From: an uncultured Saprospiraceae bacterium
GTDB lineage: Bacteria > Bacteroidota > Bacteroidia > Chitinophagales > Saprospiraceae
Assembly (NCBI GenBank): GCA_964569025.1
Contig: CAZMSQ010000007.1
Location: 32,940-96,939, forward strand
Reading direction: 5' to 3'
Length of the DNA: 64,000 nucleotides
Part shown: one piece after another, positions 1 to 13,526 of the stretch
How the letters are laid out: each line of letters begins with the position of its first letter
How positions within the stretch are numbered: the first letter of the stretch is position 1
Notes under the pieces: generated by a model
What the model saw: only the letters and a program-made list of their open reading frames with translations
Database searches by the model: none
Told to the model about the DNA's origin: nothing
Program-made: the position numbers and the translations under genes

Positions 1-189
1 CTTGTTGCGGCAGGCTGTGCACTCCTGCTTCGTGCTGAATGGATAACCGGAAGTCTGCCAACGTACTACTTTGGAACGACACTACTCCTTGGTGGGGTCT
101 GGGTGAATGGAAACCTCCTTCCGCTGATTCGTCAATGGGTCATTCCGGGAGCATTTGATACCGAAACGCTGAGAAACGAAAATTCGTGA
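1..189 (+). CDS. 3' end of an upstream CDS (partial, hydrophobic C-terminus ...LLGGVWVNGNLLPLIRQWVIPGAFDTETLRNENS*); product unknown
   Basis: Frame-1 reading is open from base 1 to TGA at 187-189. The stop overlaps the downstream ATG (TGATG). No recognisable motif. Confidence 0.3.
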   Translation, partial: LVAAGCALLLRAEWITGSLPTYYFGTTLLLGGVWVNGNLLPLIRQWVIPGAFDTETLRNENS

Positions 190-461
190 TGCAAACTGTG
201 CATTTTACATCTGCCCTCAAGCGGTTTTTTCCTGATATTGAACCACAACACGTCGAAGGCCAGACCGTCGCAGAAGTGCTGGATAGGCTTGAAACCCAAT
301 ATCCCGGACTCAAATCATATCTCGTTACGGAAAATGGTGCGCTTCGTAAGCACATCAACATTTTTGTAGACGGCGACTTGATTTCAGACCGAGATACGCT
401 GACTGATCAGTTAGGCCAGAGTCAGGATATTCTCATTTTTCAAGCTCTCTCCGGAGGGTAA
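189..461 (+). CDS. MoaD/ThiS/CysO-family ubiquitin-like sulfur-carrier protein (ends ...ALSGG*)
   Basis: About 90 aa with a C-terminal Gly-Gly immediately before the stop, typical of MoaD/ThiS thiocarboxylate carriers. ATG at 189 (ORF track starts at GTG 186). Stop abuts the next gene. Confidence 0.65.
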   Translation: MQTVHFTSALKRFFPDIEPQHVEGQTVAEVLDRLETQYPGLKSYLVTENGALRKHINIFVDGDLISDRDTLTDQLGQSQDILIFQALSGG

Positions 462-1565
462 ATGCTATGTGCTGAAATGAACCGCAAACTTCTCGTGGCA
501 ACGTCAAAAGGTCTGGTTGTTTGGGACCGAAAAGGGCAAAAGGAATGGGTCGTCAGAGATGTCCACTTTCAGGGATTTCCAGTTTCGGTCATTTATGCAG
601 ACACCCGGCATCAAGTGTGGTGGGCTGGGGTCTCTCACCGGCACTGGGGTCAGAAATTGCATCGGTCGTTTGATGAGGGTAAGACATGGGATGAAATGCC
701 TGTGCCTGCATACCCTGACAAAGCCGAGTGGCGACCCGGAAAGGCTGCAGTCCTTAAGAAAGTGTGGACGATCAGCAGTGCAGGCCCGGATAAGCCTGAA
801 GGACTGTGGGTTGGCACAGAACCAGGAGGATTGTTTTACAGCAATGACTACGGACAATCATATACACTGGTTGAGAGTCTGTGGAATATGCCGGGCCGTA
901 TGGACCCAACCCAATGGTTTGGGGCAGGGCGCGATTTGCCGTTTATCCATTCCGTGGTAGTTGATCCGGCTGACAGCGATCATGTGTATATCGCGGTGAG
1001 CTGCGCTGGAATCTTCGAAACCACCGATGGCGGAGCAACGTGGGCAGCGAAGAATAAAGGACTCATCGCAGCCTATCTTCCGGACCCGCATGCTGAACAG
1101 GGCCATGACCCACATCTGCTGCTGGCTTGTACCTCCCACCCAAACGTGCTTTGGCAGCAAAACCACTGTGGGGTCTTCCGGACAGAAAATGGAGGGCAGC
1201 ACTGGTCGGATGTGTCAGATCCCAGAGGGTATGTGCATTATGGGTTTGCGCTCGCAGTAGATGAAAGTGATCCGCTCTCAGCCTGGGTGATTCCTGCAAT
1301 GAGCGATGATCAGCGCGTTCCGCCAAATCTGGCACTCCGGGTCTGCCGGACCAGAGATGGCGGAAAAACCTGGCAATCGCTTACCTCCGGATTGCCCGGA
1401 GAATGCTGTTTTGACATTGTCTTTCGACATGCTTTGGCTCGGCAGGGCTCATGCATGGCCTTCGGGTCAACCACCGGGAATCTGTTTTTCTCAGATAATG
1501 ACGGAGACTCATGGACGTGCCTGAGCCATGTGTTGGGCAGAGTCGAAACCGTTACTTTTGCTTGA
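462..1565 (+). CDS. BNR/Asp-box repeat beta-propeller protein (sialidase-like fold; function unknown)
   Basis: Six S-x-D-x-G-x-T-W-like Asp-box motifs: SFDEGKTW, SNDYGQSY, TTDGGATW, TENGGQHW, TRDGGKTW, SDNDGDSW. The ATG sits immediately after the MoaD-like stop, so the two are probably coupled. Confidence 0.65.
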   Translation: MLCAEMNRKLLVATSKGLVVWDRKGQKEWVVRDVHFQGFPVSVIYADTRHQVWWAGVSHRHWGQKLHRSFDEGKTWDEMPVPAYPDKAEWRPGKAAVLKKVWTISSAGPDKPEGLWVGTEPGGLFYSNDYGQSYTLVESLWNMPGRMDPTQWFGAGRDLPFIHSVVVDPADSDHVYIAVSCAGIFETTDGGATWAAKNKGLIAAYLPDPHAEQGHDPHLLLACTSHPNVLWQQNHCGVFRTENGGQHWSDVSDPRGYVHYGFALAVDESDPLSAWVIPAMSDDQRVPPNLALRVCRTRDGGKTWQSLTSGLPGECCFDIVFRHALARQGSCMAFGSTTGNLFFSDNDGDSWTCLSHVLGRVETVTFA

Positions 1566-1640
1566 AAAATTCTATTTTTAGAAAATAAATTCTAATTTCG
1601 AAATCTATTTTATTCATTTACCTTCTTAAATCTACACACC

Positions 1641-2510
1641 ATGATACCTGCTGCTTTTGACTACGCCGCCCCTGGGACGCTGGAGGAAGCCTTCGCGTTG
1701 CTGGAGGAGTACGGCGATGAAGCCAAGATTCTGGCAGGTGGCCACAGCCTGATTCCAATGATGAAGCTGCGATTTGCAGAGCCCGGGCGGTTGATTGACA
1801 TCAACAACATCCCGGGGCTTTCATACATCAAGGAAGAGGATGGTTACCTGAAAATCGGGGCAATGACCAGAGAATCCGACCTTGAAAGGTCCGATCTTAT
1901 CCCGGGGAAATATCAGATTTTCCTCGATGCCAGTAAGTTGATTGCTGACCCTCAGGTGCGGAATATGGGTACGATTGGGGGCAATATTGCACATGGAGAT
2001 GCGGCAAATGACCATCCTGCAGTTATGCTGGCAATGCGGGCAGAAGTGGTCATCAGCAGTTCGGAAGGATCGCGGGTTGTGCCGATCGATGAGTTTTTCT
2101 ATGGCTTCTACATGACAGCTGTGCAACCTCACGAAATTCTGACAGAAATCAGAATTCCAATACCGGGGCAGCATACCGGCAATGCATATCACAAACTTGA
2201 GCGCAAGGTCGGCGATTATGCAACAGCTGGCGTGGCAGCACAAATCGGTATGGATGCGCAAGGGGTTTGCACCTATGCCGGAATCGGGCTCACAAATGTC
2301 AATCCGGTGCCGATGGTTGCATCTCGTTCAGAGGAACTGTTGAAAGGCAATGTACTCACTGATGATCTCATCGCACAAGCTGCTCAGTATGCATCAGAAG
2401 ATTGCAATCCTTCATCAGACCTCCGTGGTGACGAAGATTTTAAGCGCGAAATGGTCAAAGTATTGACCAAGCGCATCATCAATAAAGCCATTGAAAGGGC
2501 GAAAGGGTAA
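1641..2510 (+). CDS. coxM: Carbon-monoxide dehydrogenase medium (FAD-binding) subunit, xanthine dehydrogenase family
   Basis: N-terminus [39 protein letters not shown] is the molybdopterin-dehydrogenase FAD-binding fold. Gene order M-S-L is typical of form I CODH. AT-rich promoter-like gap upstream (1566..1640). Confidence 0.9.
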
Positions 2511-2535: not shown

Positions 2536-3039
2536 ATGACTCAACAGATTACACTCACCGTCAATGGTGAACAACACACCGTCGAGGTCGAACCACGGAC
2601 GCTTCTGGTTCACCTCATCCGCGAACAGCTTAGCATGACCGGTACTCATATCGGCTGCGACACCTCCAGCTGCGGAGCATGCACCATTCTGCTCGATGGT
2701 AAGTCCATCAAATCCTGCACCGTATTGGCCGTTCAGGCCAATGGGAAGGAAGTGATCACCGTCGAAGGACTGGCCACAACTGAAGGGTTGCACCCCATTC
2801 AGGAGGGCTTCAAGGAAAACCACGGACTCCACTGCGGATTCTGCACTCCCGGCATGATGCTGCGGGCTGTAGAGTTGCTCGAAGACAATCCCAATCCCAC
2901 CGAGGAGGAAATCCGCTGGGGAATTTCAGGGAATCTTTGCCGCTGTACCGGATACAATAATATCGTAAAGGCGATTCAATATGCCGGCGCGAAAATGCGC
3001 GGAGAGGAAACGCCATCTACTGAACCGGAATTCGTGTAA
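2536..3039 (+). CDS. coxS: Carbon-monoxide dehydrogenase small [2Fe-2S] subunit
   Basis: Two [2Fe-2S] cysteine motifs ([10 protein letters not shown]... and CGFCTPGM... NLCRCTGY). Start reassigned to ATG 2536 ([11 protein letters not shown]); the ORF-track start at 2491 would overlap coxM. Confidence 0.9.
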
Positions 3040-3090: not shown

Positions 3091-5463
3091 ATGATACAGT
3101 GTAAAACCTCCAAGGAAATCAGCGGCATGGGGCACTCCATGAAGCGGAAGGAGGACGACCGCTTCATTCAGGGCAAGGGGAATTATGTCGATGACATAAA
3201 ATTGCCCGGCATGCTCTACATGGACATCGTCAGAAGCCCGTACGCCTACGCAAAAATTAAAAATATCAATGCTGAGCCTGCCCTTCAGATCCCCGGTGTT
3301 GTAGCTGTGGTAACCGGCAAAGATCTTGAAAAGTATAACCTGCACTGGATGCCGACGCTGATGTCGGATACACAGATGGTCCTGCCGACAGATACCGTCA
3401 TGTATCAGGCTCAAGAAGTAGCCGCCGTCATCGCTACCAGTAAATATGCGGCCCGGGACGGCCGCGAGGCAGTCCAGGTAGAATACGAAACCATGAAGCC
3501 GGTTGTCGACCCGTATAAGTCGCTCGATCCGGATGCCCCGGTGCTTCGTACTGACAAGGAAGGCAAAACCGATAATCACATCTGGCATTGGGAAGTGGGT
3601 GATAGAGACAAGACAGAGAAAGTCTTTTCGGATGCTGAAGTCGTCGTGAAAGAGCAGATGCACATTCCGCGAATTCATGTTTCTTCCATTGAAACCTGTG
3701 GTTGTGTGGCTGACTATGACAAAGTCAACAATCACCTGACGATGTACATGACTACGCAGGCACCGCACGCCATTCGTACCGTCATCGCACTGGTTGCCGG
3801 TCATGTAGGACTGACAGAAGAGAAAGTCAGAGTGATTTCTCCCGACATCGGGGGTGGATTCGGAGGGAAGGTGCCGGTGTATCCTGGGTATGTGATCGCT
3901 ATTGCCGTTTCATTCCTTGTTGGAAAGCCGGTGAAGTGGATTGAGGACCGGAGCGAAAACCTTCAGGCCGATTCATTCGCCAGAGATTATCACATCACTG
4001 CTGAGATGGCCGCCACCAAGGAAGGGAAAATTCTCGGGACGCGTTTCAAAATCTTAGCAGATCACGGCTATACCGATGCATCTGCCAACCCGTCAAAGTT
4101 CCCGACCGGACTGTTTTCCATCGGTACCGGCTCCTACGATTATGATACAGCCTTCATGGAGGCCGATGCGGTATATACCAACAAGCCACCCGGAGGAGTC
4201 GCCTATCGTTGTTCTTTCCGTGTGACTGAGGCTGTGCATGCTATTGAACGAATTACAGACCGCCTTGCCCTTGAAATCGGAAAAGATCCGGCTCAGCTGC
4301 GGATGGAAAACTTTATCAAAAAAGAGGATTTCCCTTGGAAATCACCCACCGGTTGGGAGTATGACAGCGGTGATTATCACGCGGGTCTGAAGAAGGCAAT
4401 GGATGCCATTGAGTACGACAACCTGCGTGTTGAGCAGGCGGAGAAGCGCAAAAAAGGTGAATTGATGGGCATTGGAATTTCCACGTTCACCGAAATTGTT
4501 GGTGCAGGACCTTCGCGTGATTTCGATATCCTTGGTATCAAGATGTTCGACTCTGCTGAAATCAGGGTCCACCCAACAGGCAAGGCCATCGCACGGTTTG
4601 GTACAAAGTCGCAGGGACAGGGTCACGAGACAACCTATGCACAGATTATTGCCGAAGAGCTCGGCATTCCGGCTGAGCATATTCAGATTGAAGAGGGTGA
4701 CACAGATACTGCGCCCTACGGTCTGGGTACTTACGCCAGCCGGAGTACGCCCACCGCCGGAGCGGCTGCAGCAATGGCAGCCCGCAAGTTGCGTGATAAG
4801 GCCAAAAAAATTGCAGCTTACCTGCTGGAGGTCTCTGAAGATGACCTCGAATGGGAGCCCGGCAAGTTTTTTGTCAAGGGGGCACCTGAAAAGGTGAAGA
4901 CCATTCAGGAAATTGTCTTCGCTGCGTACACCAACCACCCGCTGGGCATGGAGGCAGGATTTGAAGCGACCCACTACTATGATCCTCCAAACTTGACATT
5001 CCCCTCCGGAGCTTATATCTGCGTGGTTGATATCGACAAGGAGACCTACGAAATCAAGGTGCGCCGATTCGTAGCCATCGATGACTGCGGGAATATCATT
5101 AACCCGATGATCGTACAGGGTCAGGTGCACGGCGGTCTGACACAGGGCCTCGCTCCTGCCATGTACGAAGAGCTTATTTACGATGAAGACGGCAATATCC
5201 TGAACGGAACCCTGATGGACTATCTTGTGCCGACTGCGGTCGAGTCACCTAACTGGGAAACCGGCCACACCGTGACACCGTCGCCCCACCACCCGATTGG
5301 TGCCAAAGGTGTAGGAGAATCCCCGACAGTGGGAGCTCCGCCGGCTATTGCCAATGCCATCGTTGATGCCCTTTCTCCATACGGGATTACCCACCTGGAT
5401 ATCCCGATCACGCCCTACAAAATCTGGAAGGCGCTGAAGGAAAAGGGCGTGTCTCTCGCCTGA
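3091..5463 (+). CDS. coxL: Form I aerobic carbon-monoxide dehydrogenase large (Mo-Cu, molybdopterin cytosine dinucleotide) subunit
   Basis: Xanthine dehydrogenase family molybdopterin-binding large subunit. The form-I active-site signature VAYRCSFR is encoded at 4198..4221. Start is uncertain: ATG 3091, 3127 (MGHSMKRKEDDRFIQGKGNYVDD) or 3139. Confidence 0.9.
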   Translation: MIQCKTSKEISGMGHSMKRKEDDRFIQGKGNYVDDIKLPGMLYMDIVRSPYAYAKIKNINAEPALQIPGVVAVVTGKDLEKYNLHWMPTLMSDTQMVLPTDTVMYQAQEVAAVIATSKYAARDGREAVQVEYETMKPVVDPYKSLDPDAPVLRTDKEGKTDNHIWHWEVGDRDKTEKVFSDAEVVVKEQMHIPRIHVSSIETCGCVADYDKVNNHLTMYMTTQAPHAIRTVIALVAGHVGLTEEKVRVISPDIGGGFGGKVPVYPGYVIAIAVSFLVGKPVKWIEDRSENLQADSFARDYHITAEMAATKEGKILGTRFKILADHGYTDASANPSKFPTGLFSIGTGSYDYDTAFMEADAVYTNKPPGGVAYRCSFRVTEAVHAIERITDRLALEIGKDPAQLRMENFIKKEDFPWKSPTGWEYDSGDYHAGLKKAMDAIEYDNLRVEQAEKRKKGELMGIGISTFTEIVGAGPSRDFDILGIKMFDSAEIRVHPTGKAIARFGTKSQGQGHETTYAQIIAEELGIPAEHIQIEEGDTDTAPYGLGTYASRSTPTAGAAAAMAARKLRDKAKKIAAYLLEVSEDDLEWEPGKFFVKGAPEKVKTIQEIVFAAYTNHPLGMEAGFEATHYYDPPNLTFPSGAYICVVDIDKETYEIKVRRFVAIDDCGNIINPMIVQGQVHGGLTQGLAPAMYEELIYDEDGNILNGTLMDYLVPTAVESPNWETGHTVTPSPHHPIGAKGVGESPTVGAPPAIANAIVDALSPYGITHLDIPITPYKIWKALKEKGVSLA

Positions 5464-5573: not shown

Positions 5574-6083
5574 ATGAAAGCTACGTTTAATAAAGTCTTT
5601 ACAGTCAACGAACCCGTTGAAAAGGTGTGGGATTACCTCAGCGATCCCAAGAAAGTCGTAACCTGCGTGCCTGGGGCAACGCTTGTTGATCAGATTGATG
5701 ACGATAATTACAAGGGGGAGGTAACCCTGAAGTTCGGCCCCATCAAAGCAAAATATGCCGGACAGATTACCTTTCTCGAACGTGATGGGAACGCCCATAA
5801 GATGGTGATGCAAGGCAAAGGACTCGATTCAAAAGGCAAGGGAAGTGCTGATATGCTGATGAACGGCCTGGTCGAGGAAAAGGACGGTGCCACTCAGGTG
5901 ACAGCCAGCATGGAAGTCTCTGTCACTGGTATGCTCGCCCAATTCGGATCCAGACTCATCAATGATGTCACGGATTCCGTATTCGACAAATTTATCCAAA
6001 ACTTTAAGGATAAGCTCGCCGGTAAAGAAGTTGACAATACAATGACTGCCGGATCCATGCTCAAAGGGATGTTTAAGAGATAA
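5574..6083 (+). CDS. coxG: CoxG-like carbon monoxide dehydrogenase subunit G (SRPBCC ligand-binding fold)
   Basis: N-terminus MKATFNKVFTVNEPVEKVWDYLSDPKKVVTCVPGA matches the CoxG family. Position in the cox cluster supports the call. Confidence 0.8.
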   Translation: MKATFNKVFTVNEPVEKVWDYLSDPKKVVTCVPGATLVDQIDDDNYKGEVTLKFGPIKAKYAGQITFLERDGNAHKMVMQGKGLDSKGKGSADMLMNGLVEEKDGATQVTASMEVSVTGMLAQFGSRLINDVTDSVFDKFIQNFKDKLAGKEVDNTMTAGSMLKGMFKR

Positions 6084-6199
6084 CTGATCTTCCGCCTGAC
6101 ACTTCTGCCGAAACTATCACAGCAAAACTTTCTTTGCAAATAAGTAAGCTCGTGGGGGTGTCTGGCGGAGATGTTTGCTCTTTAGAATTAAACAGTCAC

Positions 6200-7090
6200 A
6201 TGGATTATCTGAACGATACGTTACAACTGACAGAGGGTTTTGACCGCCAGAAATATCTGGTGGACGATGAGCTCGCAACCATTCTGTTTCTGATGATGAA
6301 GTTGCAGAAGCCCCTTCTGCTTGAGGGAAATCCTGGGGTTGGGAAAACAGAAGTTGCAAACGTTCTGGCTGGTTTTCTGGATACACCCCTGATCCGCCTC
6401 CAATGTTATGAGGGGCTTGATGTGCACTCTGCCGTGTATGAGTGGAATTACCAGAAGCAACTCCTTTCAATTAAAATTCAGGAGGGCATCGACCGGTCTG
6501 AAGCAGATAAGGAAGCGCATATTTTTGGAGAAGACTTCTTGCTGAAAAGGCCACTTCTGCAAGCAATAACCGCGGCCACCAAGGCACCGGTTCTGTTGAT
6601 TGATGAAGTAGATCGCGCCGACGAAGAGTTTGAGGCCTTTCTGCTTGAGCTGCTCTCTGCATTTCAAATCAGCATCCCAGAAATGGGTACCATCAAGGCC
6701 ATTCACAAACCATTTGTCGTACTCACCTCCAACCGGACCAGAGAGTTGAGTGACGCCCTGAAACGGAGGTGCCTGTATCATTGGGTGAATTATCCGGATC
6801 AGGAACGGGAAATCCGTATTGTGAGCAAGCACCTTCCGACAATTGATGCTCAGCTTGCAGAGACCTTGGTAAAAGTGGTAGGCGTGCTCCGCTCACGCAA
6901 GTTGAACAAGGCGCCGGGCATTGCTGAAACACTCGATTGGGCTTCGGGGCTGCTCGCCCTTGGATTTGAAAACCTTACAGAAGAAAGCATGTCCAAAACG
7001 CTCGGCTGCGTGCTCAAGTCAGCAGATGACCTAGAACGGATTAAAGCGGAAGGCCTTGGCGTTTTGCTCGCTGATATTCCAGTTTCCTGA
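6200..7090 (+). CDS. coxD: MoxR-like AAA+ ATPase CoxD (maturation of the CODH Mo-Cu centre)
   Basis: Walker A LLEGNPGVGKTEVA and a MoxR-type AAA core. Start placed at ATG 6200 (about 296 aa, the usual CoxD length); the ORF track begins at 6134. Confidence 0.8.
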   Translation: MDYLNDTLQLTEGFDRQKYLVDDELATILFLMMKLQKPLLLEGNPGVGKTEVANVLAGFLDTPLIRLQCYEGLDVHSAVYEWNYQKQLLSIKIQEGIDRSEADKEAHIFGEDFLLKRPLLQAITAATKAPVLLIDEVDRADEEFEAFLLELLSAFQISIPEMGTIKAIHKPFVVLTSNRTRELSDALKRRCLYHWVNYPDQEREIRIVSKHLPTIDAQLAETLVKVVGVLRSRKLNKAPGIAETLDWASGLLALGFENLTEESMSKTLGCVLKSADDLERIKAEGLGVLLADIPVS

Positions 7091-7095
7091 TTCCC

Positions 7096-8241
7096 ATGCC
7101 GGAGCACCACCATTTTACAAACTATGGATCACTGAAAGAGGCACTCATTGCCTTTGGTCAGTTGGCACGTGATAACGGCCTGAAGGTGGGCGTGCAGGAA
7201 ACTCTGGATGCCCTCATTGCTGCGCGGGAAGGGGTGATTATTGACCTGCGTGCCATGAAGTTTGCGCTTAAGGCCCTGTATTGTTGTAGCGAGGAAGACA
7301 GTGATGTCTTTGATGATCTCTTTGATTGGTTCTGGAATAAACCCAGAAATGCCGTGAAGAGCCACATTACCATGAAAAACCGGTCAAATCTGGTCAAGCG
7401 CTCAGCTGCATCGGTGGTCATGCTTGGCACAGGAAAGCAAAAAAACGGCCAGGAAGAGGAGTCAAAAAATACATCAGGCGCCAACGCAGTTGAACGCCTG
7501 CGAAAAACAGATTTCGCCAGTCTATCGGAAATCGACAGCCAATGGCTCGAGGAAATCGCCATGAAACTCTGGAAGCAGATGAGCCTGCGCCTCAAACGCA
7601 AACTGCGCTCGTCACCTGGCCGTGGGCAACTCGACCTGCGGCGTACAATCCGTCAGTGCATTGCTCACGGAGGTGACCCCATTGACTTATTCATAAAAAC
7701 CCGCAAGCCAAAACGCCAGAGGCTGATTGTCCTCCTTGATGTCAGTGGTTCAATGGACAAGTACAGTTTTTTTCTTCTGCGGTTCCTTTGCGCACTGAGC
7801 GCCCATTTTGAGCGCATCGAGGCCTTTTTATTCAGCACTCACCTCGTCCGTATCTCCCCCTGGCTAAATGCCCGCAATCTGGATGCGACGTTTCGCGAAC
7901 TTTCAGCCAGGGCTGACAATTGGTCAAGCGGTACCCGCATCGGAGAGTGCTTCCGCTCATTCAATGAAGAATATGCGAAGCGAATCCTAAACGGTCACTC
8001 GACAGTCATTATCTTGTCCGATGGTCTTGACACAGGATCGCCTGATTTGCTGGCCTCAGAGCTCAAGCGAATCAAGTTGCGCACCCGTCAGTTGCTGTGG
8101 CTCAACCCTCTGAAGGGGATGTCCGGATATCAGCCTGTGCAACAAGGTATGAGTGCAGCCTTGCCGCAGGTCGATGTGTTTGAGTCCGCACACAATCTTG
8201 ACAGCATTCTCGAACTGGAAAATTTCTTGCTGAATGTTTAA
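7096..8241 (+). CDS. coxE: CoxE, von Willebrand factor A domain protein
   Basis: VWA MIDAS motif LLDVSGSM. Lies directly after coxD with a 5-bp gap. Confidence 0.8.
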   Translation: MPEHHHFTNYGSLKEALIAFGQLARDNGLKVGVQETLDALIAAREGVIIDLRAMKFALKALYCCSEEDSDVFDDLFDWFWNKPRNAVKSHITMKNRSNLVKRSAASVVMLGTGKQKNGQEEESKNTSGANAVERLRKTDFASLSEIDSQWLEEIAMKLWKQMSLRLKRKLRSSPGRGQLDLRRTIRQCIAHGGDPIDLFIKTRKPKRQRLIVLLDVSGSMDKYSFFLLRFLCALSAHFERIEAFLFSTHLVRISPWLNARNLDATFRELSARADNWSSGTRIGECFRSFNEEYAKRILNGHSTVIILSDGLDTGSPDLLASELKRIKLRTRQLLWLNPLKGMSGYQPVQQGMSAALPQVDVFESAHNLDSILELENFLLNV

Positions 8242-9217
8242 TGAATTTCTCAAAAAAGTCCAGTCTCTTCACCAACAGCGTGTCCCCTTTGCCATGGCCT
8301 TCGTTGTGAACCGCCAGGTTCCATCATCCGGGAAGCCCGGAGATAAGGCAGTTATCGAGCAGGATGGCACAATCACCGGCTGGATTGGCGGAGGGTGCAC
8401 ACGGGGGATTGTCCTCAAAGAAGCTGCAGATGCCATCCGTGACGGAAAACCACGGATGCTCCGAATTAGCCCTGATCAGGATACCTCACCAAATCCAGGA
8501 GTGATGGATTATACAATGACCTGCCACTCTGGTGGCACCGTAGAACTCTACATTGATCCCGTCCTGCCAAGGCCGGAAATCCTCATTTTCGGCCGGTCGC
8601 ATGTTGCCCGTTCGCTCTCGAGGCTGGCCAAAGCGATGGACTACCACGTCACCGTGGCGTGCAAGGGAGCCGACTCAGTGCATTTTCCGGATGCCGACGA
8701 GTTGCGGGAAGCCCCCGTCGAGGCCCAATCTGCCCGGTCAAATACCTTTGCTGTGGTTTGTACCCAGGGTGAAGATGATGAAACTCATTTGATGCAGGCA
8801 ATCAGGAGTGGGGCAGGTTATGTTGCTTTTGTAGCCAGTCGCCGAAAGGCAAATGCTATTTTTCAGACGCTACGAAGTTTTGATGTCTCATTCGATGAGC
8901 TGCGTGAGATTCATACCCCGGCGGGTCTTGACATCAATGCAAAGCTTCCCGAAGAGGTCGCCGTCAGCATACTTGCACAGATTGTGTCCCATATCAGGAA
9001 TGAGAGTATTCAGGATTCTGCTGAGAAAAAGAGTGCCCATGAGCCAGCTGAAAACTCGGCATACTTCGTGAATCCAGTATGTCAGGTGCCTGTCGAGAAA
9101 AAGACTGCAAAATATGTTGTCCAATTTCAGGAAAGAGATTATTACTTTTGTTGTGACGGTTGCAAAGTTGCCTTTGAGGCTGATCCTGAAAAATATGCCT
9201 TGCCTGAGCCGGTATGA
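8234..9217 (+). CDS. coxF: XdhC/CoxF/CoxI-family maturation factor with a fused C-terminal YHS/TRASH metal-binding domain
   Basis: XdhC_CoxI N-terminal region (GWIGGGCTRGIVLKEAADAIRDGKPRMLRI). XdhC Rossmann-like C-domain. Extra C-terminal segment NPVCQVPVEKKTAKYVVQFQERDYYFCCDGCKVAFEADPEKYA matches the YHS consensus. Overlaps coxE by 8 nt. Confidence 0.8.
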   Translation: MFNEFLKKVQSLHQQRVPFAMAFVVNRQVPSSGKPGDKAVIEQDGTITGWIGGGCTRGIVLKEAADAIRDGKPRMLRISPDQDTSPNPGVMDYTMTCHSGGTVELYIDPVLPRPEILIFGRSHVARSLSRLAKAMDYHVTVACKGADSVHFPDADELREAPVEAQSARSNTFAVVCTQGEDDETHLMQAIRSGAGYVAFVASRRKANAIFQTLRSFDVSFDELREIHTPAGLDINAKLPEEVAVSILAQIVSHIRNESIQDSAEKKSAHEPAENSAYFVNPVCQVPVEKKTAKYVVQFQERDYYFCCDGCKVAFEADPEKYALPEPV

Positions 9218-9828
9218 TATGCGCCATTCTTCTCGCAGCAGGCACTTCTTCGCGGATGGGGTCATCCAACAAGCTTTTGCTTGATGTTGGCAACGGTCAG
9301 CCTCTGGTTCGGACAATGGCCGAGCAGTTGGCGGGAGCGCCATTTGACGAGGTGGTGGTAGTAACTGGCTTTGAGAGTGGGGATGTAAAATGTGCCTTGG
9401 AAGGGCTTCCGGTTCGGATTATCGAAAATCCCGCCTATGAATCCGGAATGACAACTTCCATTATTGCCGGTCTTAGAGCAATTGCACCGGACGCGCATTT
9501 TTTGGTGGGCCTGTCAGATATGCCATTGCTGACTGCCAAACATTACAAATTGCTGCTCGCAGAGTTTGAAGCGGCATTAATCGATACCGCCCACCCAATT
9601 GTAAAACCGTCACTGAACGGAGTCCCGGGTAATCCGGCAATCTTCCATGCAGTCTATCGAGAAGAGGTGCTCTCACTGACTGATCTCCATGCCGGATGTA
9701 AACCCGTTTTGCAGCATCATGCAGACAGTGTGATTCACCCAAAGGGACTTCCGGATGTGTTTTTTCTGGACATGGACCGTCCGGAAGAGTATCAGGAAAT
9801 GAGAATGCGGGTGAACCGCGAGGGATAA
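9214..9828 (+). CDS. mocA: MobA-like NTP transferase, probable molybdenum cofactor cytidylyltransferase (MocA-like)
   Basis: N-terminus ICAILLAAGTSSRMG is the nucleotidyltransferase P-loop of the MobA/MocA family. About 200 aa. Start overlaps the coxF stop (ATGA). Confidence 0.7.
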   Translation: MICAILLAAGTSSRMGSSNKLLLDVGNGQPLVRTMAEQLAGAPFDEVVVVTGFESGDVKCALEGLPVRIIENPAYESGMTTSIIAGLRAIAPDAHFLVGLSDMPLLTAKHYKLLLAEFEAALIDTAHPIVKPSLNGVPGNPAIFHAVYREEVLSLTDLHAGCKPVLQHHADSVIHPKGLPDVFFLDMDRPEEYQEMRMRVNREG

Positions 9829-9840
9829 TGCTTCGAAGAC

Positions 9841-10491
9841 ATGAAGCCAACAAAAAAACGGATACTTCTTGCTGCGAAGGACTGCTTCGCGACCAAAGGC
9901 GTTGCAGCAACAAGGCTTCAGGATATTGCCGAACTCGCAGGTATGAGTATCGGTAATATGGTTTACCACTTCCGTAATCAGGTTGAGATGCTGGAAGTAA
10001 TTTACACTAGCTTCCAACAGCGACAAGAAGAACTCCTACAGGATATTTGCCTAAGCCCGGTTTTTTCTAATATCGATGAGTATCTCCAGAATGCTTTTCA
10101 GCTCCATCAGGAATTTTTGTTTTTCCCCCTTCACACCCCGGAGGTGCTCAGTGCGTCGCCCCGAATTTCCTCTGAATGGCGTGAACATCTCCGGTGGAAG
10201 GACCTGCAGCTTGAGTTGATGTTGCGCTTCAATCAGGCCAGAGGCGCTTTAAGTTGGGATGAGGAAACATATCCTGTCGGTGATTTGGCAGTTTTATGGA
10301 GGCGGACAATCGACGGTTGGCCCATGCATCGGGTGGTTGAGCAAAAAAACCTCGATGATTTTTTGGCTTTTCGTAAGAGTGCATGGTCAGTGCTCCTCTC
10401 CCTGATCACACCTGAAGCCCGTCCTGAATACCTAAGGCTTCACTTTACTTCAGCGCCCCAAGTACAGAACACCGTAATTGATGAAGAATGA
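9841..10491 (+). CDS. TetR/AcrR family transcriptional regulator
   Basis: N-terminal HTH KKRILLAAKDCFATKGVAATRLQDIAELAGMSIGNMVYHFRNQ. Its stop overlaps the start of the next gene (ATGA). Confidence 0.85.
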   Translation: MKPTKKRILLAAKDCFATKGVAATRLQDIAELAGMSIGNMVYHFRNQVEMLEVIYTSFQQRQEELLQDICLSPVFSNIDEYLQNAFQLHQEFLFFPLHTPEVLSASPRISSEWREHLRWKDLQLELMLRFNQARGALSWDEETYPVGDLAVLWRRTIDGWPMHRVVEQKNLDDFLAFRKSAWSVLLSLITPEARPEYLRLHFTSAPQVQNTVIDEE

Positions 10492-11963
10492 GCGAGGCGC
10501 TGCTTGAAAATATCGTTGCGAAGCGCGTTGTGCTTGAAAAAGAGCTTGGGATCGACCTATACATTGACAGGAACGATATTGTACAGCGGGCATCTTGTTC
10601 TGTGACTCATCATCAAGGCGAAAGAGGAATTCTTGTCGGTAGAAATCCGCGTGAGATTCCGTACGTGGCTTCCCATTTGTTTGGATACTCCGGAGGTTCT
10701 CATCAGCAAGCCGCGACCATGGCTCTTGAGCATGCATGGGGTGCAAAGGTGCCCAAGAATGCGCGACTGCTCAGAGCCATCGGACAAGCTGCAGAAATTA
10801 TCCAGAGCTCTGTCAGGTGGATTTACACAGCATTTGGGCCGGGCTTGGCCCACCCTGCATTTTCAGGGCTTCAAGATTCAGAATATATCCGGGACCATTT
10901 TTTAGCGTTCAAAGGCACTTCTTTCCGCAGGGGAATCCTCGGCGCCACGTTCCCCATGTCGGTATATGCAGCAATTGCCGGACAATGGCCGCAGGCCCGG
11001 TTTGCCTGCCCCGGAGGCATCGGAACGATACCTGATGCAGCGGCCCTTGCCAGGGTTTCCGGCCTCCTGAGTCGGTTTCGTACCGAGTGGCTGGAAGGGG
11101 TTCTATTACATACCTCTGTAGATGAGTTTCTCGACATTCGTACGTCGGACCAACTCTTTAATTGGATAGATTCTGCCGGGACTCACCCCAAAAGCGATTT
11201 GGCTGCCATGCTGAGTGGTGCCTTGGAAAGAGGGTACCTCAACTTAGGAGACCACTCAGCGCCAACCCTGACGTATGGTGCATTTCATGTCAGTGATCAG
11301 GAAGAAGAATCGATTCCGGAGTTACTCTCATCCCATTCTTCCATTCCCGGGCTGTGTATCAACGGTAGTTCTGTTGATGTATTGAGCAGGGCATCCGTTC
11401 GAAGCTGTATCGAGTCGTTGGGGCAATCTCATCAAACCTGGTATCAGGGCCAACCGACAGAGGTTGGCCCGCTTGCACGCATGCTTTCCCTCCATGCTGT
11501 CCGCCCGGAAGGCAATCTGATTGGTCACATGGTATCTTGGTCAGGTAAAAATGCCTTTGCCAGAATTCTTGCGAGAATCCGCGAGATTATGGTTCTTGAA
11601 AACCGAATCAGATTCTGGCTGGCACAAATTGATCCAGATGAACCATGGAATCTGCCTGTAGAAGATAGAGATGGCTGGGGACTCGGTCTGACGGAAGCGC
11701 CGCGAGGAGCACTCGCCCATTTGGTTCGGATCAGAGATGGGAAAGTGGCGGATTATCAGATTCTGCCCCCAACTTTGCTGAACGTTTCCTCCGGATCCGG
11801 AGACTCTCCCATCGAGTCTGCCCTCAGCCAATTGGAAATCCCGAATAGAAATAGCCTCCATGAGGTTGGAATCATTGCTCGTTCTTTTGATGCCAGTGTG
11901 TCCTGTAAGGTCAGGCTGTTGAAACATCCCTCCGGAAAGGTGATCTTGACGTCAGATGAATAA
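10488..11963 (+). CDS. [NiFe]-hydrogenase large-subunit homologue with degenerate (cysteine-depleted) metal-binding motifs
   Basis: Read against E. coli HyaB by eye, the conserved blocks line up. [50 protein letters not shown] matches [56 protein letters not shown] and [23 protein letters not shown] also match. C-terminal [15 protein letters not shown] stands against LHSFDPCLACSTHVL. The L1 CxxC is replaced by FGYS and the L2 DPCxxC by DASVSC. Confidence 0.75.
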   Translation: [491 protein letters not shown]

Positions 11964-12143
11964 ACATGACAAATGGACGGCGAAAAGTGTATGAACCTTC
12001 GGTAAAATTGATTGTACTACAAATGATTGTTGTTCTATGAACGAGTATGTGATTATTTTAGAGTGCAGTGAGTCGTGCTGCTAAAGATTTAATTTCGAAG
12101 TTTTTTTCAAAAAGTCTACTTTCCCACACAGAATATCTGATTT

Positions 12144-12404
12144 ATGTGTCTTGCCATCCCCGGACGAATCAAAAGAATTGATCGATCAGATCCATTCTTG
12201 AAAAGAGCCCATGTGGCCTTCGGAACCCTTATGAAAGAGGTGTGCCTTGATATGACCCCTTTGGCTCGCGTAGGCGATTATGTCCTTGTGCATGCGGGCG
12301 TGGCAATTAACGTGGTGAATGAAGAAGAAGCGATGCGCACATTCTTATACCTTGAAGAATACGGGGGTCTTGAAGACCTCTTGCCGGAGAGAGACCAGAC
12401 CTGA
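12144..12404 (+). CDS. hypC: Hydrogenase maturation factor HypC/HupF
   Basis: Canonical N-terminus MCLAIPGRI and about 86 aa. Confidence 0.85.
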   Translation: MCLAIPGRIKRIDRSDPFLKRAHVAFGTLMKEVCLDMTPLARVGDYVLVHAGVAINVVNEEEAMRTFLYLEEYGGLEDLLPERDQT

Positions 12405-12407
12405 TTC

Positions 12408-13526
12408 ATGAAATTTCTCGAAGAATACAGGGACCCGCAATTGGCGGAGCAATACCTCAACCGTCTCCATTCAGTAACCACCGGAGAGTGGGTAATTATG
12501 GAATTCTGCGGGGGGCAAACCCACAGTCTTGTCAAAAACGGCCTCATTGATTTGCTTCCCGCCGGTGTAACAATGGTGCATGGTCCGGGGTGTCCAGTCT
12601 GTGTGACCCCACTCTCTATGATAGACGCAGCCATTCGCCTTGCTGAGGAAAAAGGGGTTATTTTGTGTTCATTCGGAGACATGCTGAGGGTGCCAGGCTC
12701 TTCTCAAAATTTATTGGAAGCCAAAGCAAAAGGTGCCGCAGTCCGTTTTTTTTACTCGCCTATGGAAGCTGTCGAATTGGCGCGTAAACATCCAGATCGG
12801 GAGGTCGTATTTTTTGCGGTTGGTTTTGAAACGACCGCACCTGCAAACGCCCTGTCAGTGCTTTATGCCAAACGGCTGGGTCTGAAAAACTATTCGCTCC
12901 TGACTTCTCATGTGTTGGTTCCTCCGGCTATTTCTGCGATAGTCGAAGATGAGGAGGCCTGTGTAGATGGTTTTCTCGGAGCAGGAAATGTCTGTTCGGT
13001 AATGGGACTCAAAGAGTACGAGCAATTAATCGACAGATACAATAAACCCTTGGTGGTGACAGGGTTTGAGCCCGTTGACCTCCTTCAGGGTATTCTCATG
13101 ACGGTGACACAACTTGAACGGGGGGAGTCGAAACTTGAAAACCAATACAGCCGGGTGGTGCCATATGAAGGGAACCCCGAAGCGCAGGCAGCGGTATATG
13201 AAGTCTTTGAGCGGTGTGACCGCGAGTGGAGAGGAATTGGCGTACTCCCGGGAAGTGGACTTCAGGTGACTGAAGAATATGCTGGATTTGATGCGATCAG
13301 AAAGTTTGGGCTCACGTTCAGATATGTGGCTGAGCCATCTGCCTGTATGGCAGGTGAAATTTTGAAAGGCACGAAGAAGCCAGTTGATTGCCCCCACTTC
13401 GGAACCACGTGCACGCCAGAAAACCCCCTTGGGGCTCCGATGGTTTCTTCAGAAGGGGCATGCGCCGCATACTATCACTTTCGCGCTATTTGCAGCGCTG
13501 ATTCACACCCAATACGTACCTTCTGA
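12408..13526 (+). CDS. hypD: Hydrogenase maturation factor HypD
   Basis: CGxH (EFCGGQTH), GPGCPVCV, FETT (VGFETTAPA), and a C-terminal Cys cluster plus SSEGACAAYY. Collinear with E. coli HypD along its full length. Confidence 0.9.
   Translation: MKFLEEYRDPQLAEQYLNRLHSVTTGEWVIMEFCGGQTHSLVKNGLIDLLPAGVTMVHGPGCPVCVTPLSMIDAAIRLAEEKGVILCSFGDMLRVPGSSQNLLEAKAKGAAVRFFYSPMEAVELARKHPDREVVFFAVGFETTAPANALSVLYAKRLGLKNYSLLTSHVLVPPAISAIVEDEEACVDGFLGAGNVCSVMGLKEYEQLIDRYNKPLVVTGFEPVDLLQGILMTVTQLERGESKLENQYSRVVPYEGNPEAQAAVYEVFERCDREWRGIGVLPGSGLQVTEEYAGFDAIRKFGLTFRYVAEPSACMAGEILKGTKKPVDCPHFGTTCTPENPLGAPMVSSEGACAAYYHFRAICSADSHPIRTF

What the first reader, a model, noticed from the sequence alone, without database searches (positions are those of the whole stretch)
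186..1565. MoaD/ThiS-like sulfur-carrier gene coupled to a BNR/Asp-box beta-propeller gene directly upstream of coxMSL
The 91-aa product ends in Gly-Gly followed by the stop. That is the hallmark of thiocarboxylate-forming sulfur carriers (MoaD, ThiS, CysO). Its stop is immediately followed by the ATG of a six-Asp-box propeller protein. The CODH active site contains a Mo-S-Cu mu-sulfido bridge whose sulfur donor is not established. A dedicated sulfur-carrier protein next to the structural genes is therefore intriguing. Alternatively it is simply a MoaD paralogue for molybdopterin synthesis placed near a molybdoenzyme, and the role of the propeller protein is unclear.
Basis: inference. Interest (0 to 1): 0.5.

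Follow-up and report, generated by a model that had tools for sequence, protein, structure and literature searches.

The report
Sulfur-carrier-like protein paired with propeller
A small ThiS/MoaD-like protein ending in Gly-Gly and a cytoplasmic beta-propeller form a widespread, uncharacterised module (two genes here, one fused protein in other phyla); in this bacterial group it sits among molybdenum-cofactor maturation genes and shares a regulatory site with CO dehydrogenase, but it is not specific to that enzyme.

Summary
A 90-aa ThiS/MoaD-fold protein (189-461) ends in Gly-Gly-stop and is followed at once by a six-Asp-box, seven-bladed propeller gene (462-1565). A true form I coxMSL-GDEF cluster starts 75 nt downstream.

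The CODH-specific interpretation is only partly supported. The pair is a conserved module in Bacteroidota, Chloroflexota, Planctomycetota and beta/gamma-Proteobacteria. In Actinomycetota and Acidobacteriota it is a single fused protein that keeps Gly-Gly at the junction. Most copies are not next to cox, and three cox loci keep the propeller but lack the small protein. It is also not the housekeeping MoaD, because relatives carry a separate 80-aa MoaD in the same loci.

The propeller is the function-unknown PDB 3b7f family, not a sialidase. In Bacteroidota the pair is embedded with XdhC, SufS/SufU, a MoeZ-like E1, MocA and cox maturation genes. In the window's lineage its operon and coxMSL share an 18-bp palindrome.

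Best reading (inferred): an E1-activated sulfur carrier plus a new partner enzyme that feeds sulfur to xanthine-oxidase-family molybdenum cofactor, with CODH as one client. The function is untested. I found no literature on the pair.

The parts
1..189 (+). 3' end of an upstream gene ('unk129'): a small protein with about four hydrophobic (putative membrane-spanning) segments. Homologues carry an invariant LPKCPFC motif. Its TGA (187-189) overlaps the ATG of the next gene.
   Evidence: Translation. blastp match to L002 9302-9691. Alignment and hydropathy. No Pfam hit. Detected in 15 of the 82 relative loci, all cox-bearing except three contigs too short to tell.
189..461 (+). ThiS90: a 90-aa ThiS/MoaD-fold (beta-grasp) protein with a C-terminal QALSGG and a TAA stop at 459-461. 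The alternative GTG start at 186 would give 91 aa.
   Evidence: PF02597 at 34.2 bits. NCBIfam best hit SAMP1 at 51.7 bits (below the cut-off of 60). Best PDB hits are CysO (4n6e_B), 2m19, 1v8c, SAMP1 and Mtb CysO. 120 of 120 homologues end in LSGG.
453..458 (+). The Gly-Gly codons (GGA GGG), the site where ThiS/MoaD-type carriers are adenylated and thiocarboxylated.
   Evidence: Read directly. Invariant in homologues and at the junction of the fused forms.
462..1565 (+). Cytoplasmic seven-bladed Asp-box beta-propeller of the PDB 3b7f family (367 aa; possible true start at ATG 477). The six Asp-boxes lie at nt 666-689, 840-863, 1020-1043, 1182-1205, 1350-1373 and 1491-1514.
   Evidence: 3b7f matched at E 3.3e-53. 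AF2 model pLDDT 87, pTM 0.88, TM-score 0.88 to 3b7f. Residues invariant across distant members: H163, S180, H218, Q233, H235, D282, R285, R322. The N-terminus runs straight into the first beta-strand, so I see no signal peptide.
1578..1595 (.). 18-bp palindrome TTAGAAAATAAATTCTAA (TTAGAA-N6-TTCTAA) in the propeller-coxM spacer. It is a likely operator.
   Evidence: Unique in the window, with 0 expected in shuffles. Relatives have a second copy in the XdhC/unk129 spacer. It is absent from cox-less loci.
1641..2510 (+). coxM (FAD subunit).
   Evidence: FAD_binding_5 and CO_deh_flav_C domains.
2536..3039 (+). coxS ([2Fe-2S] subunit).
   Evidence: Fer2_2 and Fer2 domains.
3127..5463 (+). coxL, the form I CODH large subunit, with the AYRCSFR motif.
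   Evidence: TIGR02416 at 1236 bits (cut-off 991). The motif is visible in the translation.
5574..6083 (+). coxG.
   Evidence: PF06240.
6134..7090 (+). coxD-like AAA+ ATPase.
   Evidence: AAA_5 and AAA domains.
7096..8241 (+). coxE (VWA domain).
   Evidence: PF05762 at 198 bits.
8234..9217 (+). coxF-like XdhC-family protein with a C-terminal YHS domain.
   Evidence: XdhC_CoxI, XdhC_C and YHS domains.
9214..9828 (+). MocA-like molybdenum cofactor cytidylyltransferase.
   Evidence: NTP_transf_3. TIGR03310 at 108.7 bits, below the cut-off of 186.
9841..10491 (+). TetR-family regulator, the candidate binder of the palindrome.
   Evidence: TetR_N domain. The link to the palindrome is inference only.

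Best explanation
SHOWN. The 90-aa gene and the propeller gene are the two halves of one conserved module.
- The small half is a CysO/SAMP1-like member of the ThiS/MoaD fold with an invariant QALSGG tail.
- The large half is a cytoplasmic seven-bladed Asp-box propeller of the function-unknown 3b7f family.
- The two are adjacent genes in at least four phyla. In Actinomycetota and Acidobacteriota they form one polypeptide, with Gly-Gly kept at the junction.
- The small protein is not the housekeeping MoaD.
- The module is not specific to cox.

INFERRED (mechanism).
1. A MoeZ-type ThiF-rhodanese E1 adenylates the Gly-Gly tail and converts it to a thiocarboxylate. The sulfur comes from SufS/SufU.
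2. The flexible tail then docks in the conserved His/Arg/Asp/Gln pocket on the top face of the propeller.
3. The propeller passes the sulfur to an acceptor.

INFERRED (acceptor). In Bacteroidota the module lives in the XdhC/Moco island, so the most likely acceptor there is molybdenum cofactor destined for xanthine-oxidase-family enzymes (Mo=O converted to Mo=S). Form I CODH would be one client. In the window's lineage the module has been drawn into the cox regulon, where that sulfur would become the Mo-S-Cu bridge.
For: The module is real.
- The pair is present in 61 of 82 Bacteroidota loci.
- The same QALSGG carrier sits next to the propeller in Chloroflexota, Planctomycetota, Cupriavidus, Ralstonia, Burkholderia, Mitsuaria and P. 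aeruginosa.
- The 120 best hits to the fusion P0290 are all 441-485 aa and all match the ThiS90 profile. I83, G85 and G86 are invariant at the junction, and the linker is variable.
- In the fusion clade, 24 loci have the protein split, and the small ORF always ends in GG-stop.

E1 link.
- Contiguous gene orders: ThiF-Rhd>ThiS90>BNR (L056), BNR>ThiF-Rhd>ThiS90 (L031), ThiS90>BNR>ThiF-Rhd (L024, L048).
- The E1's best NCBIfam match is MoeZ, and it passes the MoeB subfamily cut-off.
- MoeZR is known to serve both MoaD and CysO (PMC3227635).

Not MoaD.
- A separate 80-aa MoaD-type gene follows SufS-SufU in the same loci.
- The ThiS90 profile HMM does not hit it.

Link to Moco and the XO family.
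- XdhC lies within 3 kb in 29 of 48 full-flank loci. Some Moco, XdhC, cox or SufSU gene is nearby in 32 of 48.
- L101: XdhC< ThiS90> BNR> MocA>.
- L038, L032, L036, L052: the pair abuts coxG/coxD/coxE.
- Independent lineages: fusion L095 lies directly after an XO-family S-L-M operon. Acidobacterial fusion L105 lies 2.2 kb from XdhC-MocA-CoxE-CoxG.

Shared operator. The palindrome occurs before unk129-ThiS90-BNR and before coxM.

Pocket and tail.
- The conserved polar residues sit at the starts of A strands and in B-C loops. This is inferred from the model's strand order, not from coordinates.
- The tail is flexible in the AF2 model of the fusion, with pLDDT below 50 for residues 82-95.

Precedents. 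Fused carriers are cleaved after GG: MoaX (PMC4326299) and DRJAMM acting on DrMoaD-MoaE (PMC8832034).
Against: - No biochemical step is shown.
- Outside Bacteroidota the link to Moco is sporadic. None of the 80 fusion-clade metagenome loci has XO-family, XdhC or cox neighbours, and only two have MoaE.
- Proteobacterial, Chloroflexota and Planctomycetota pairs sit among unrelated genes such as YciI, VOC/glyoxalase, SnoaL and GNAT.
- One actinobacterial fusion sits in the rho-prfA-Sua5-glyA housekeeping row.
- The propeller occurs without the carrier in three cox loci, in five other full-flank Bacteroidota loci that have no Moco/XdhC/cox neighbours, and in Streptomyces and Rhodobacterales.
- In the fused forms the Gly-Gly is internal, so activation would need a cleavage step that has not been shown.
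- AF2 gives no confident docking of the two domains (pTM 0.76).
- In O. carboxidovorans, sulfuration happens on cofactor buried about 17 A inside the folded CODH, and small thiols can reach it (PMC4240915). A protein donor is therefore not required.
- No E1, JAMM protease or second ThiS-like gene lies in the 64-kb window.
Confidence: 0.4

Rival explanations
1. The module is a sulfur-carrier/propeller enzyme pair for some other thiolation or stress-related reaction, with an unknown small-molecule or protein acceptor. Its place in the Bacteroidota Moco island, and next to cox, would be a lineage-specific arrangement without a direct role in cofactor sulfuration.
For: - None of the 80 fusion-clade loci has Moco, cox or XdhC neighbours, and only two have MoaE.
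- The recurrent neighbours elsewhere are YciI, VOC/glyoxalase, SnoaL, GNAT, SRPBCC and ArsR-type genes.
- 16 of 48 Bacteroidota loci have no Moco-related neighbour.
- One actinobacterial fusion sits in a housekeeping operon.
Against: - XdhC is a neighbour in 29 of 48 loci spread over several families whose wider flanks have been rearranged.
- Links to XO-family enzymes, XdhC or MocA recur independently in L095, L101 and L105.
- The cox operator is shared.
- The pair lies directly against coxG/D/E in several loci.
Confidence: 0.3
2. One reading: the pair is a dedicated donor of the mu-sulfido sulfur of the CODH Mo-S-Cu centre.
For: - The pair is adjacent to coxMSL here and in 12 of 48 relatives.
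- It shares a palindrome with coxM in this lineage.
- The sulfur source for CODH is unknown (PMC4240915).
Against: - Most orthologues are not near cox, and many phyla carry the pair with no cox in the locus.
- Three cox loci lack the small protein.
- In cox-less loci the pair sits with XdhC and general Moco genes.
Confidence: 0.07
3. The small protein is simply a MoaD paralogue that serves molybdopterin (dithiolene) synthesis with MoaE. The propeller would be an unrelated neighbour.
For: - It has the ThiS/MoaD fold with a Gly-Gly tail, and sources annotate it as MoaD.
- In Chondrinema L086 a MoaE, but no 80-aa MoaD, lies in the cluster.
Against: - It gives no hit to the bacterial moaD model TIGR01682, whereas the 80-aa neighbour does.
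- Both genes co-exist in the same loci.
- The constant partner is the propeller, not MoaE, and the two are fused in at least 120 proteins.
Confidence: 0.05
4. The role has nothing to do with sulfur. The beta-grasp domain would be a ubiquitin-like modifier, or a structural or regulatory subunit of a propeller hydrolase, which might itself cut after Gly-Gly. No thiocarboxylate would ever form.
For: - Gly-Gly is internal in the fused forms.
- The closest NCBIfam model is SAMP1, a protein modifier.
- Three invariant His plus an Asp on the propeller could form a metal-hydrolase site.
- Related Asp-box propellers (sortilin, Ycf48, DAIP) are among the structural matches; that they bind peptides or proteins is from my own knowledge.
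Against: - An E1 with a rhodanese (sulfur-transfer) domain is the recurrent neighbour.
- No JAMM or E2-like genes appear in any locus. This comes only from the Pfam lists of the roughly 20 loci returned by the look-up of encoding contigs. No JAMM or E2 seed was used in my blastp classifications.
- There are no PADLOC hits.
- SufS/SufU and Moco genes surround the pair in Bacteroidota.
Confidence: 0.13

Closest known systems
MoaD-MoaE molybdopterin synthase, including the fused MoaX of M. tuberculosis and DrMoaD-MoaE
   Same: - A small beta-grasp carrier with a C-terminal Gly-Gly, paired with (and in some lineages fused to) its partner enzyme.
- The fused forms keep Gly-Gly at the junction and must be cleaved there to work (PMC4326299; PMC8832034).
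- Activation is by a MoeB/MoeZ-type E1.
   Different: - The partner here is a seven-bladed Asp-box propeller, not MoaE.
- The carrier falls in a different orthologous group (best model SAMP1, best PDB hit CysO; no hit to TIGR01682).
- A canonical MoaD co-exists in the same loci.
CysO-CysM/Mec+ and BexX-CysO (actinobacterial thiocarboxylate-dependent cysteine and thiosugar synthesis), activated by MoeZ
   Same: - CysO is the closest solved relative of the carrier (4n6e_B, 3dwg_C).
- In that system one E1 with a rhodanese domain serves several carriers (PMC3227635).
   Different: - No CysM, Mec+/JAMM or BexX homologue appears in any locus examined.
- The partner is a propeller of unknown activity.
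XdhC/NifS4-dependent Moco sulfuration (R. capsulatus) and eukaryotic Moco sulfurase (ABA3/MOCOS)
   Same: - In Bacteroidota the genomic setting is XdhC, a cysteine desulfurase (SufS/SufU) and MocA next to XO-family enzymes.
- The proposed end product, sulfurated Moco, is the same.
   Different: - The known systems pass a persulfide directly from the desulfurase.
- No protein thiocarboxylate and no propeller is known in either of them.
CoxD/CoxE/CoxF maturation of the CODH [CuSMoO2] cluster (O. carboxidovorans)
   Same: - The same cox accessory genes lie downstream here.
- The sulfur donor of the CoxD-dependent step is unknown (PMC4240915).
   Different: - PMC4240915 describes the O. carboxidovorans cox accessory genes as coxDEFG and mentions no ThiS-like or propeller gene.
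- There, sulfuration occurs on cofactor already buried in the folded enzyme.
PDB 3b7f (Reut_B4987, 'putative glycosyl hydrolase with BNR repeats') and other non-glycosidase Asp-box propellers (sortilin Vps10, Ycf48, DAIP)
   Same: - Same family as 3b7f (E 3e-53, TM-score 0.88).
- The homologue in C. metallidurans also has the QALSGG gene directly upstream.
- Sortilin, Ycf48 and DAIP are Asp-box propellers among the structural matches; from my own knowledge they bind peptides or proteins rather than sugars.
   Different: - 3b7f has no assigned function (PMC2716378).
- Sortilin, Ycf48 and DAIP are only fold relatives (12-17% identity).

Membership tests
ThiS/MoaD superfamily (PF02597) sulfur-carrier proteins | Beta-grasp domain that matches the family model. 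| tested here: met
   PF02597 at 34.2 bits against a cut-off of 22.5. PDB hits to CysO, SAMP1 and MoaD-related proteins.
ThiS/MoaD superfamily (PF02597) sulfur-carrier proteins | C-terminal Gly-Gly directly before the stop codon. | tested here: met
   GGA GGG TAA at 453-461. 120 of 120 homologues end in LSGG. The tail is QALSGG across phyla.
ThiS/MoaD superfamily (PF02597) sulfur-carrier proteins | A cognate E1-like adenylyltransferase (MoeB/ThiF/MoeZ). | tested here: inconclusive
   None in the 64-kb window, and the window starts at the pair. A ThiF-rhodanese E1 is contiguous with the pair in L056, L031, L024, L048, L077 and L001-type loci.
ThiS/MoaD superfamily (PF02597) sulfur-carrier proteins | Formation of a C-terminal thiocarboxylate. 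| not testable with these tools
   This needs mass spectrometry of the protein.
MoaD proper (molybdopterin synthase small subunit, TIGR01682) | Matches the moaD equivalog and partners with MoaE. | tested here: not met
   No TIGR01682 hit. The separate 80-aa gene in relatives does hit it, at 49 bits. The constant or fused partner is the propeller.
SAMP1 (NF041918) | Score above the curated cut-off. | tested here: not met
   51.7 bits against a cut-off of 60.
CysO-type carrier | Neighbouring CysM sulfhydrylase and Mec+ JAMM protease. | tested here: not met
   Neither appears among the called genes of the roughly 20 encoding-contig loci that carry Pfam lists. The window and the 160 related-loci loci were not searched for CysM or JAMM.
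Exo-alpha-sialidase / GH33 (the common database name for the propeller) | Match to the sialidase catalytic domain and to solved sialidases. Secreted or surface location. | tested here: not met
   No BNR_2 hit at the threshold used. PDB sialidases match only at E 0.29 or worse over about 25 residues. The N-terminus runs straight into strand 1, so I see no signal peptide.
GH74 xyloglucanase | Two tandem seven-bladed propellers of about 730 aa. | tested here: not met
   This is a single 367-aa propeller. The match is fold-level only (15-17% identity, TM-score normalised to the query 0.6).
Ycf48/HCF136 | Score above the curated cut-off. | tested here: not met
   NF010237 at 37 bits against a cut-off of 326.
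3b7f family of single seven-bladed Asp-box propellers | Full-length sequence and fold match. | tested here: met
   E 3.3e-53 over residues 10-361. Foldseek TM-score 0.88 in both directions.
Form I aerobic CODH (the neighbouring coxL) | TIGR02416 above its cut-off, plus the AYXCSFR active-site loop. | tested here: met
   1236 bits against 991. AYRCSFR is present in the translation.
Anti-phage ubiquitin-like systems (PADLOC) | Match to any defence-system model. | tested here: not met
   No hits for the carrier, the propeller or the fusion.

The most novel reading that the evidence does not exclude
The ThiS-like carrier plus 3b7f-type propeller is a previously unrecognised, protein-thiocarboxylate-dependent molybdenum-cofactor sulfurase. 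It would be the bacterial counterpart of eukaryotic Moco sulfurase. It would install the Mo=S ligand of xanthine-oxidase-family enzymes and, in CO oxidisers, the sulfur that becomes the Mo-S-Cu bridge of CODH.
Probability: 0.2. Interest if true: 0.85.

Novelty: new variant of a known kind. Interest (0 to 1): 0.58.

Why it matters
Two questions about molybdoenzymes remain open. One is how bacteria deliver the terminal sulfido ligand to the cofactor of the xanthine-oxidase family. The other is where the bridging sulfur of the CODH Mo-S-Cu centre comes from (PMC4240915).

This module gives a concrete, genetically tractable candidate. It occurs in Cupriavidus, Ralstonia, Burkholderia and P. aeruginosa, and the propeller already has a crystal structure (3b7f).

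Whatever the acceptor turns out to be, the work assigns a partner and a context to a large family now mis-named 'exo-alpha-sialidase/glycosyl hydrolase'. It also shows a new partner class for ThiS/MoaD-type carriers, supported by hundreds of natural fusions.

Tried and rejected
- Literature: six searches aimed at the pair, 3b7f/Reut_B4987 or PA1355/PA1356 found nothing on function; a seventh query was rejected by the tool. One further query ('ThiS family' + sialidase) was uninformative because it matched the phrase 'this family'.
- Defence-system idea: no PADLOC hits.
- E1, MoaE or a second ThiS-like gene inside the window: none found by tblastn with seeds. No JAMM seed was used. The window begins at the pair, so its upstream side cannot be seen.
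- Conserved extra neighbours in Bacteroidota loci where the pair stands alone: clustering of unassigned ORFs gave none.
- The same clustering for the fusion clade was noisy because of high GC content. It gave only generic small stress-type genes.
- Mixed alignment of the fusion with separate carriers and propellers, intended for structure prediction: MAFFT misplaced the short sequences, so I dropped it. I used the 120 natural fusions instead. That model folds both domains, but the tail is disordered and the docking is not confident, so it neither supports nor refutes tail insertion.
- Programmed read-through idea, prompted by the in-frame GG-TAA-ATG here: Bacteroidota pairs show no frame preference (23/20/13), so I rejected it for this lineage.
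- Intrinsic terminator between the propeller gene and coxM: none found.
- Mapping conserved residues in three dimensions: not possible, because the tools return no coordinates. The only evidence is a topology argument from the strand order.
Full report
**1. What is in the sequence**

- An ORF from ATG 189 (GTG 186 is an alternative start) to 461 encodes 90 aa ending ...QALSGG. The codons are GGA GGG at 453-458 and TAA at 459-461.
- ATG 462 follows the stop directly, in the same frame. It opens a 367-aa ORF that ends at 1565.
- The small protein matches Pfam ThiS at 34.2 bits (cut-off 22.5). Its best NCBIfam models are SAMP1 (51.7 bits, below the cut-off of 60) and archaeal-type MoaD. It does not hit the bacterial moaD model.
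- Its best solved relatives are CysO (4n6e_B, 3dwg_C), 2m19, 1v8c and SAMP1. E. coli-type MoaD and ThiS are not among the hits at E up to 1.
- The large protein has six Asp-boxes.
- coxM starts at 1641. It is followed by coxS, coxL (TIGR02416 at 1236 bits against 991; AYRCSFR loop), coxG, a coxD-like AAA+ ATPase, coxE, an XdhC-type coxF with a YHS domain, a MocA-like transferase and a TetR regulator.

Two refinements apply.
- Window 1-189 is the 3' end of another gene, whose TGA overlaps ATG 189.
- The propeller's real start may be ATG 477.

**2. The propeller**

- It is a full-length homologue of PDB 3b7f (Reut_B4987), at E 3.3e-53.
- 3b7f is a seven-bladed Asp-box propeller listed with function 'not known' (PMC2716378).
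- An AF2 model (pLDDT 87, pTM 0.88) superposes on 3b7f with TM-score 0.88. The next matches are only fold relatives: GH74 enzymes, DAIP, sortilin Vps10 and Ycf48.
- Solved sialidases match only at E 0.29 or worse over about 25 residues. The N-terminus runs straight into the first strand, so I see no signal peptide.
- The database names 'exo-alpha-sialidase' and 'glycosyl hydrolase' are therefore not supported.
- Across members from Bacteroidota, Proteobacteria, Streptomyces and Rhodobacterales, the invariant polar residues are H163, S180, H218, Q233, H235, D282, R285 and R322.
- In the model's strand order these residues all sit at the starts of inner strands or in B-C loops. That is the top face around the axis, the usual propeller active site. 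This is my inference, because the tools return no coordinates.

**3. The pair is a conserved module, and often one protein**

- The propeller family is large. More than 6,500 proteins scored among the 8,000 candidates. There are 618 clusters at 50% identity with E of 1e-30 or better, some of which are giant multi-repeat proteins.
- All 120 listed homologues of the small protein end in LSGG.
- The 80 closest species-level genome loci are, with one exception, Bacteroidota. Together with two further loci they make 82. In 61 of them the small gene lies beside the propeller gene.
- The same QALSGG gene sits directly upstream of the propeller gene in Ralstonia, Burkholderia, Cupriavidus, Mitsuaria, P. 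aeruginosa, Chloroflexota and Planctomycetota.
- A search with one long representative (P0290, 453 aa) returned 120 proteins of 441-485 aa. All of them match the ThiS90 profile and carry propeller-type Pfam domains. The sources name them as Actinomycetota and Thermoanaerobaculia.
- At the junction, I83, G85 and G86 are invariant. The linker that follows varies from 4 to 33 residues.
- In 80 metagenome loci of this clade, 55 encode the fusion. In 24 the protein is split exactly after GG-stop, and 20 of those splits are in frame with a 3-6 nt gap.
- This is strong 'Rosetta-stone' evidence that the two proteins work together.
- There is precedent for fused carriers that must be cut after Gly-Gly: MoaX (PMC4326299) and DrMoaD-MoaE cut by DRJAMM (PMC8832034).
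- An AF2 model of the fusion folds both domains (pLDDT 89.6). It leaves residues 82-95, the GG tail plus linker, disordered. It gives no confident docking (pTM 0.76).

**4. It is not the housekeeping MoaD**

In Cyclobacteriaceae-type loci the order is MoaA< SufS> SufU> MoaD(80 aa)> XdhC< ThiS90> propeller> ThiF-rhodanese< MoaE> MoaC< MoeA>.
- The 80-aa gene's best model is bacterial moaD.
- The 90-aa family does not hit that model.
- The ThiS90 profile does not detect the 80-aa gene.
- Both genes also co-exist in cox-bearing loci (L027, L033).

**5. It is not specific to cox**

Among 48 Bacteroidota loci with at least 4 kb on both sides:

| Feature near the pair | Loci |
|---|---|
| CoxL nearby | 12 |
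| XdhC within 3 kb | 29 |
| Any Moco, XdhC, cox or SufSU gene | 32 |
| None of these | 16 |

- Proteobacterial, Chloroflexota and Planctomycetota pairs have no Moco or cox neighbours. Their recurrent neighbours are YciI, VOC/glyoxalase, SnoaL and GNAT genes.
- None of the 80 fusion-clade loci has cox, XdhC or XO-family neighbours (two have a MoaE).
- One actinobacterial fusion sits in the rho-prfA-Sua5-glyA row.
- Three cox loci (L023, L045, L100) keep the propeller but lack the small gene.

**6. Evidence that still ties the module to XO-family cofactor maturation**

- XdhC is divergently adjacent in most Bacteroidota loci, although the wider flanks differ.
- L101 reads XdhC< ThiS90> propeller> MocA>.
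- In L032, L036 and L052 the propeller gene is followed directly by coxG-coxD-coxE. In L038 the pair lies between coxG and coxD/E.
- In unrelated lineages, a fusion follows an XO-family S-L-M operon (L095). An acidobacterial fusion lies 2.2 kb from XdhC-MocA-CoxE-CoxG (L105).
- A MoeZ-like ThiF-rhodanese E1 is contiguous with the pair in several orders. In L056 it is there with no other Moco gene present.
- MoeZR is known to serve both MoaD and CysO (PMC3227635).
- The spacer between the propeller gene and coxM contains an 18-bp palindrome, TTAGAA-N6-TTCTAA, at 1578-1595. It is unique in the window, with none expected by chance.
- In the closest relatives the same palindrome occurs twice: before coxM, and in the XdhC/unk129 spacer ahead of unk129-ThiS90-propeller. 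It occurs in no cox-less locus.
- In this lineage, therefore, the pair's operon and coxMSL appear to belong to one regulon.
- No terminator separates them.

**7. Most likely mechanism**

Shown:
- a two-part module whose parts are often fused;
- an invariant Gly-Gly tail;
- a conserved polar pocket on the propeller;
- recurrent E1, SufS/SufU, XdhC and MocA neighbours in Bacteroidota;
- an operator shared with cox.

Inferred:
- the E1 adenylates and thiocarboxylates the tail;
- the flexible tail enters the propeller pocket;
- the sulfur is passed to molybdenum cofactor for XO-family enzymes, either on XdhC or in the apoenzyme. CODH is one client.

The literature confirms that the CODH sulfur source is unknown and that CoxD is needed for sulfuration. 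It also shows that this step takes place on cofactor buried about 17 A inside the folded enzyme, and that small thiols can reach it (PMC4240915). That argues against any need for a protein donor.

I put this reading at about 0.4. The main rival, an unrelated thiolation or stress function with a lineage-specific location, is at about 0.3.

**8. Novelty**

I found no paper on the pair, on 3b7f's function or on the P. aeruginosa genes. The locus tags PA1355/PA1356 come from my memory of the gene order and are unverified. The library does not cover most subscription journals.

The carrier is a member of a known superfamily. The obligate propeller partner and the fusion architecture are, as far as I can tell, undescribed. 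I therefore rate it a new variant of a known kind.

Noticed in passing
window 1578-1595; L002 9150-9167 and 11219-11236; L004, L006, L018, L045: The 18-bp palindrome TTAGAA-N6-TTCTAA lies before coxM. In relatives a second copy lies in the XdhC/unk129 spacer. It is found only in cox-bearing loci. It is a likely operator, and the TetR gene at 9841-10491 is the candidate regulator.
   Followed up: partly
window 1-189 (partial); L002 9302-9691: A small protein with about four hydrophobic (putative membrane-spanning) segments, an invariant LPKCPFC motif and a second conserved Cys (AITxCS). It has no Pfam match. Wherever the contig is long enough to tell it occurs only in cox-bearing loci, always just upstream of the carrier or propeller gene. 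It may be a metal (copper?) handling protein for CODH.
   Followed up: partly
window 8234-9217: The coxF-like XdhC-family protein carries a C-terminal YHS domain; from my own knowledge YHS is a putative copper-binding domain. This architecture is conserved in relatives.
   Followed up: no
window 10488-13526: A 491-aa protein resembling a [NiFe]-hydrogenase large subunit matches the models only in part. It lies directly after the TetR gene, with HypD further on. In relatives the order TetR> NiFe-like> HypC> is conserved downstream of cox. No small-subunit gene was looked for.
   Followed up: no
L124-L185 (metagenome loci of the fusion clade): Where the fusion is split into two genes, the split is exactly after Gly-Gly. 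In 20 of 24 cases the two ORFs are in the same frame, 3-6 nt apart. This points to repeated gene fission and fusion by single mutations at one stop codon. Bacteroidota pairs show no such frame bias.
   Followed up: yes
L088 7983-9131; L090 8022-9149: The Rhodobacterales propeller homologues have no ThiS-like partner. The Fuscovulum one (L088) carries a His-rich insert (GDAHGHDHGACGHEVGHCVH) next to the conserved His218 position, and its gene lies beside SCO-family and multicopper-oxidase genes. This hints that the propeller pocket may bind a metal.
   Followed up: no
L023 53-3854; L027, L032, L036 (upstream of XdhC): Several relatives carry a second XO/CODH-family enzyme, in S-L-M gene order and about 40% identical to CoxL, on the other side of XdhC from the pair.
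   Followed up: no
L001 5754-7629 and similar loci: SufS, SufU and the 80-aa MoaD form one apparent operon in Bacteroidota Moco clusters. This suggests a dedicated sulfur relay for molybdopterin synthase.
   Followed up: no
L085, L093, L096, L087, L095, L097: Outside Bacteroidota the pair or fusion repeatedly neighbours small YciI, VOC/glyoxalase, SnoaL and GNAT genes. I have no explanation for this.
   Followed up: partly
window 18759-21794: A 1011-aa protein with a C-terminal Por_Secre_tail (type IX secretion sorting) domain. This is consistent with a Bacteroidota origin for the window.
   Followed up: no
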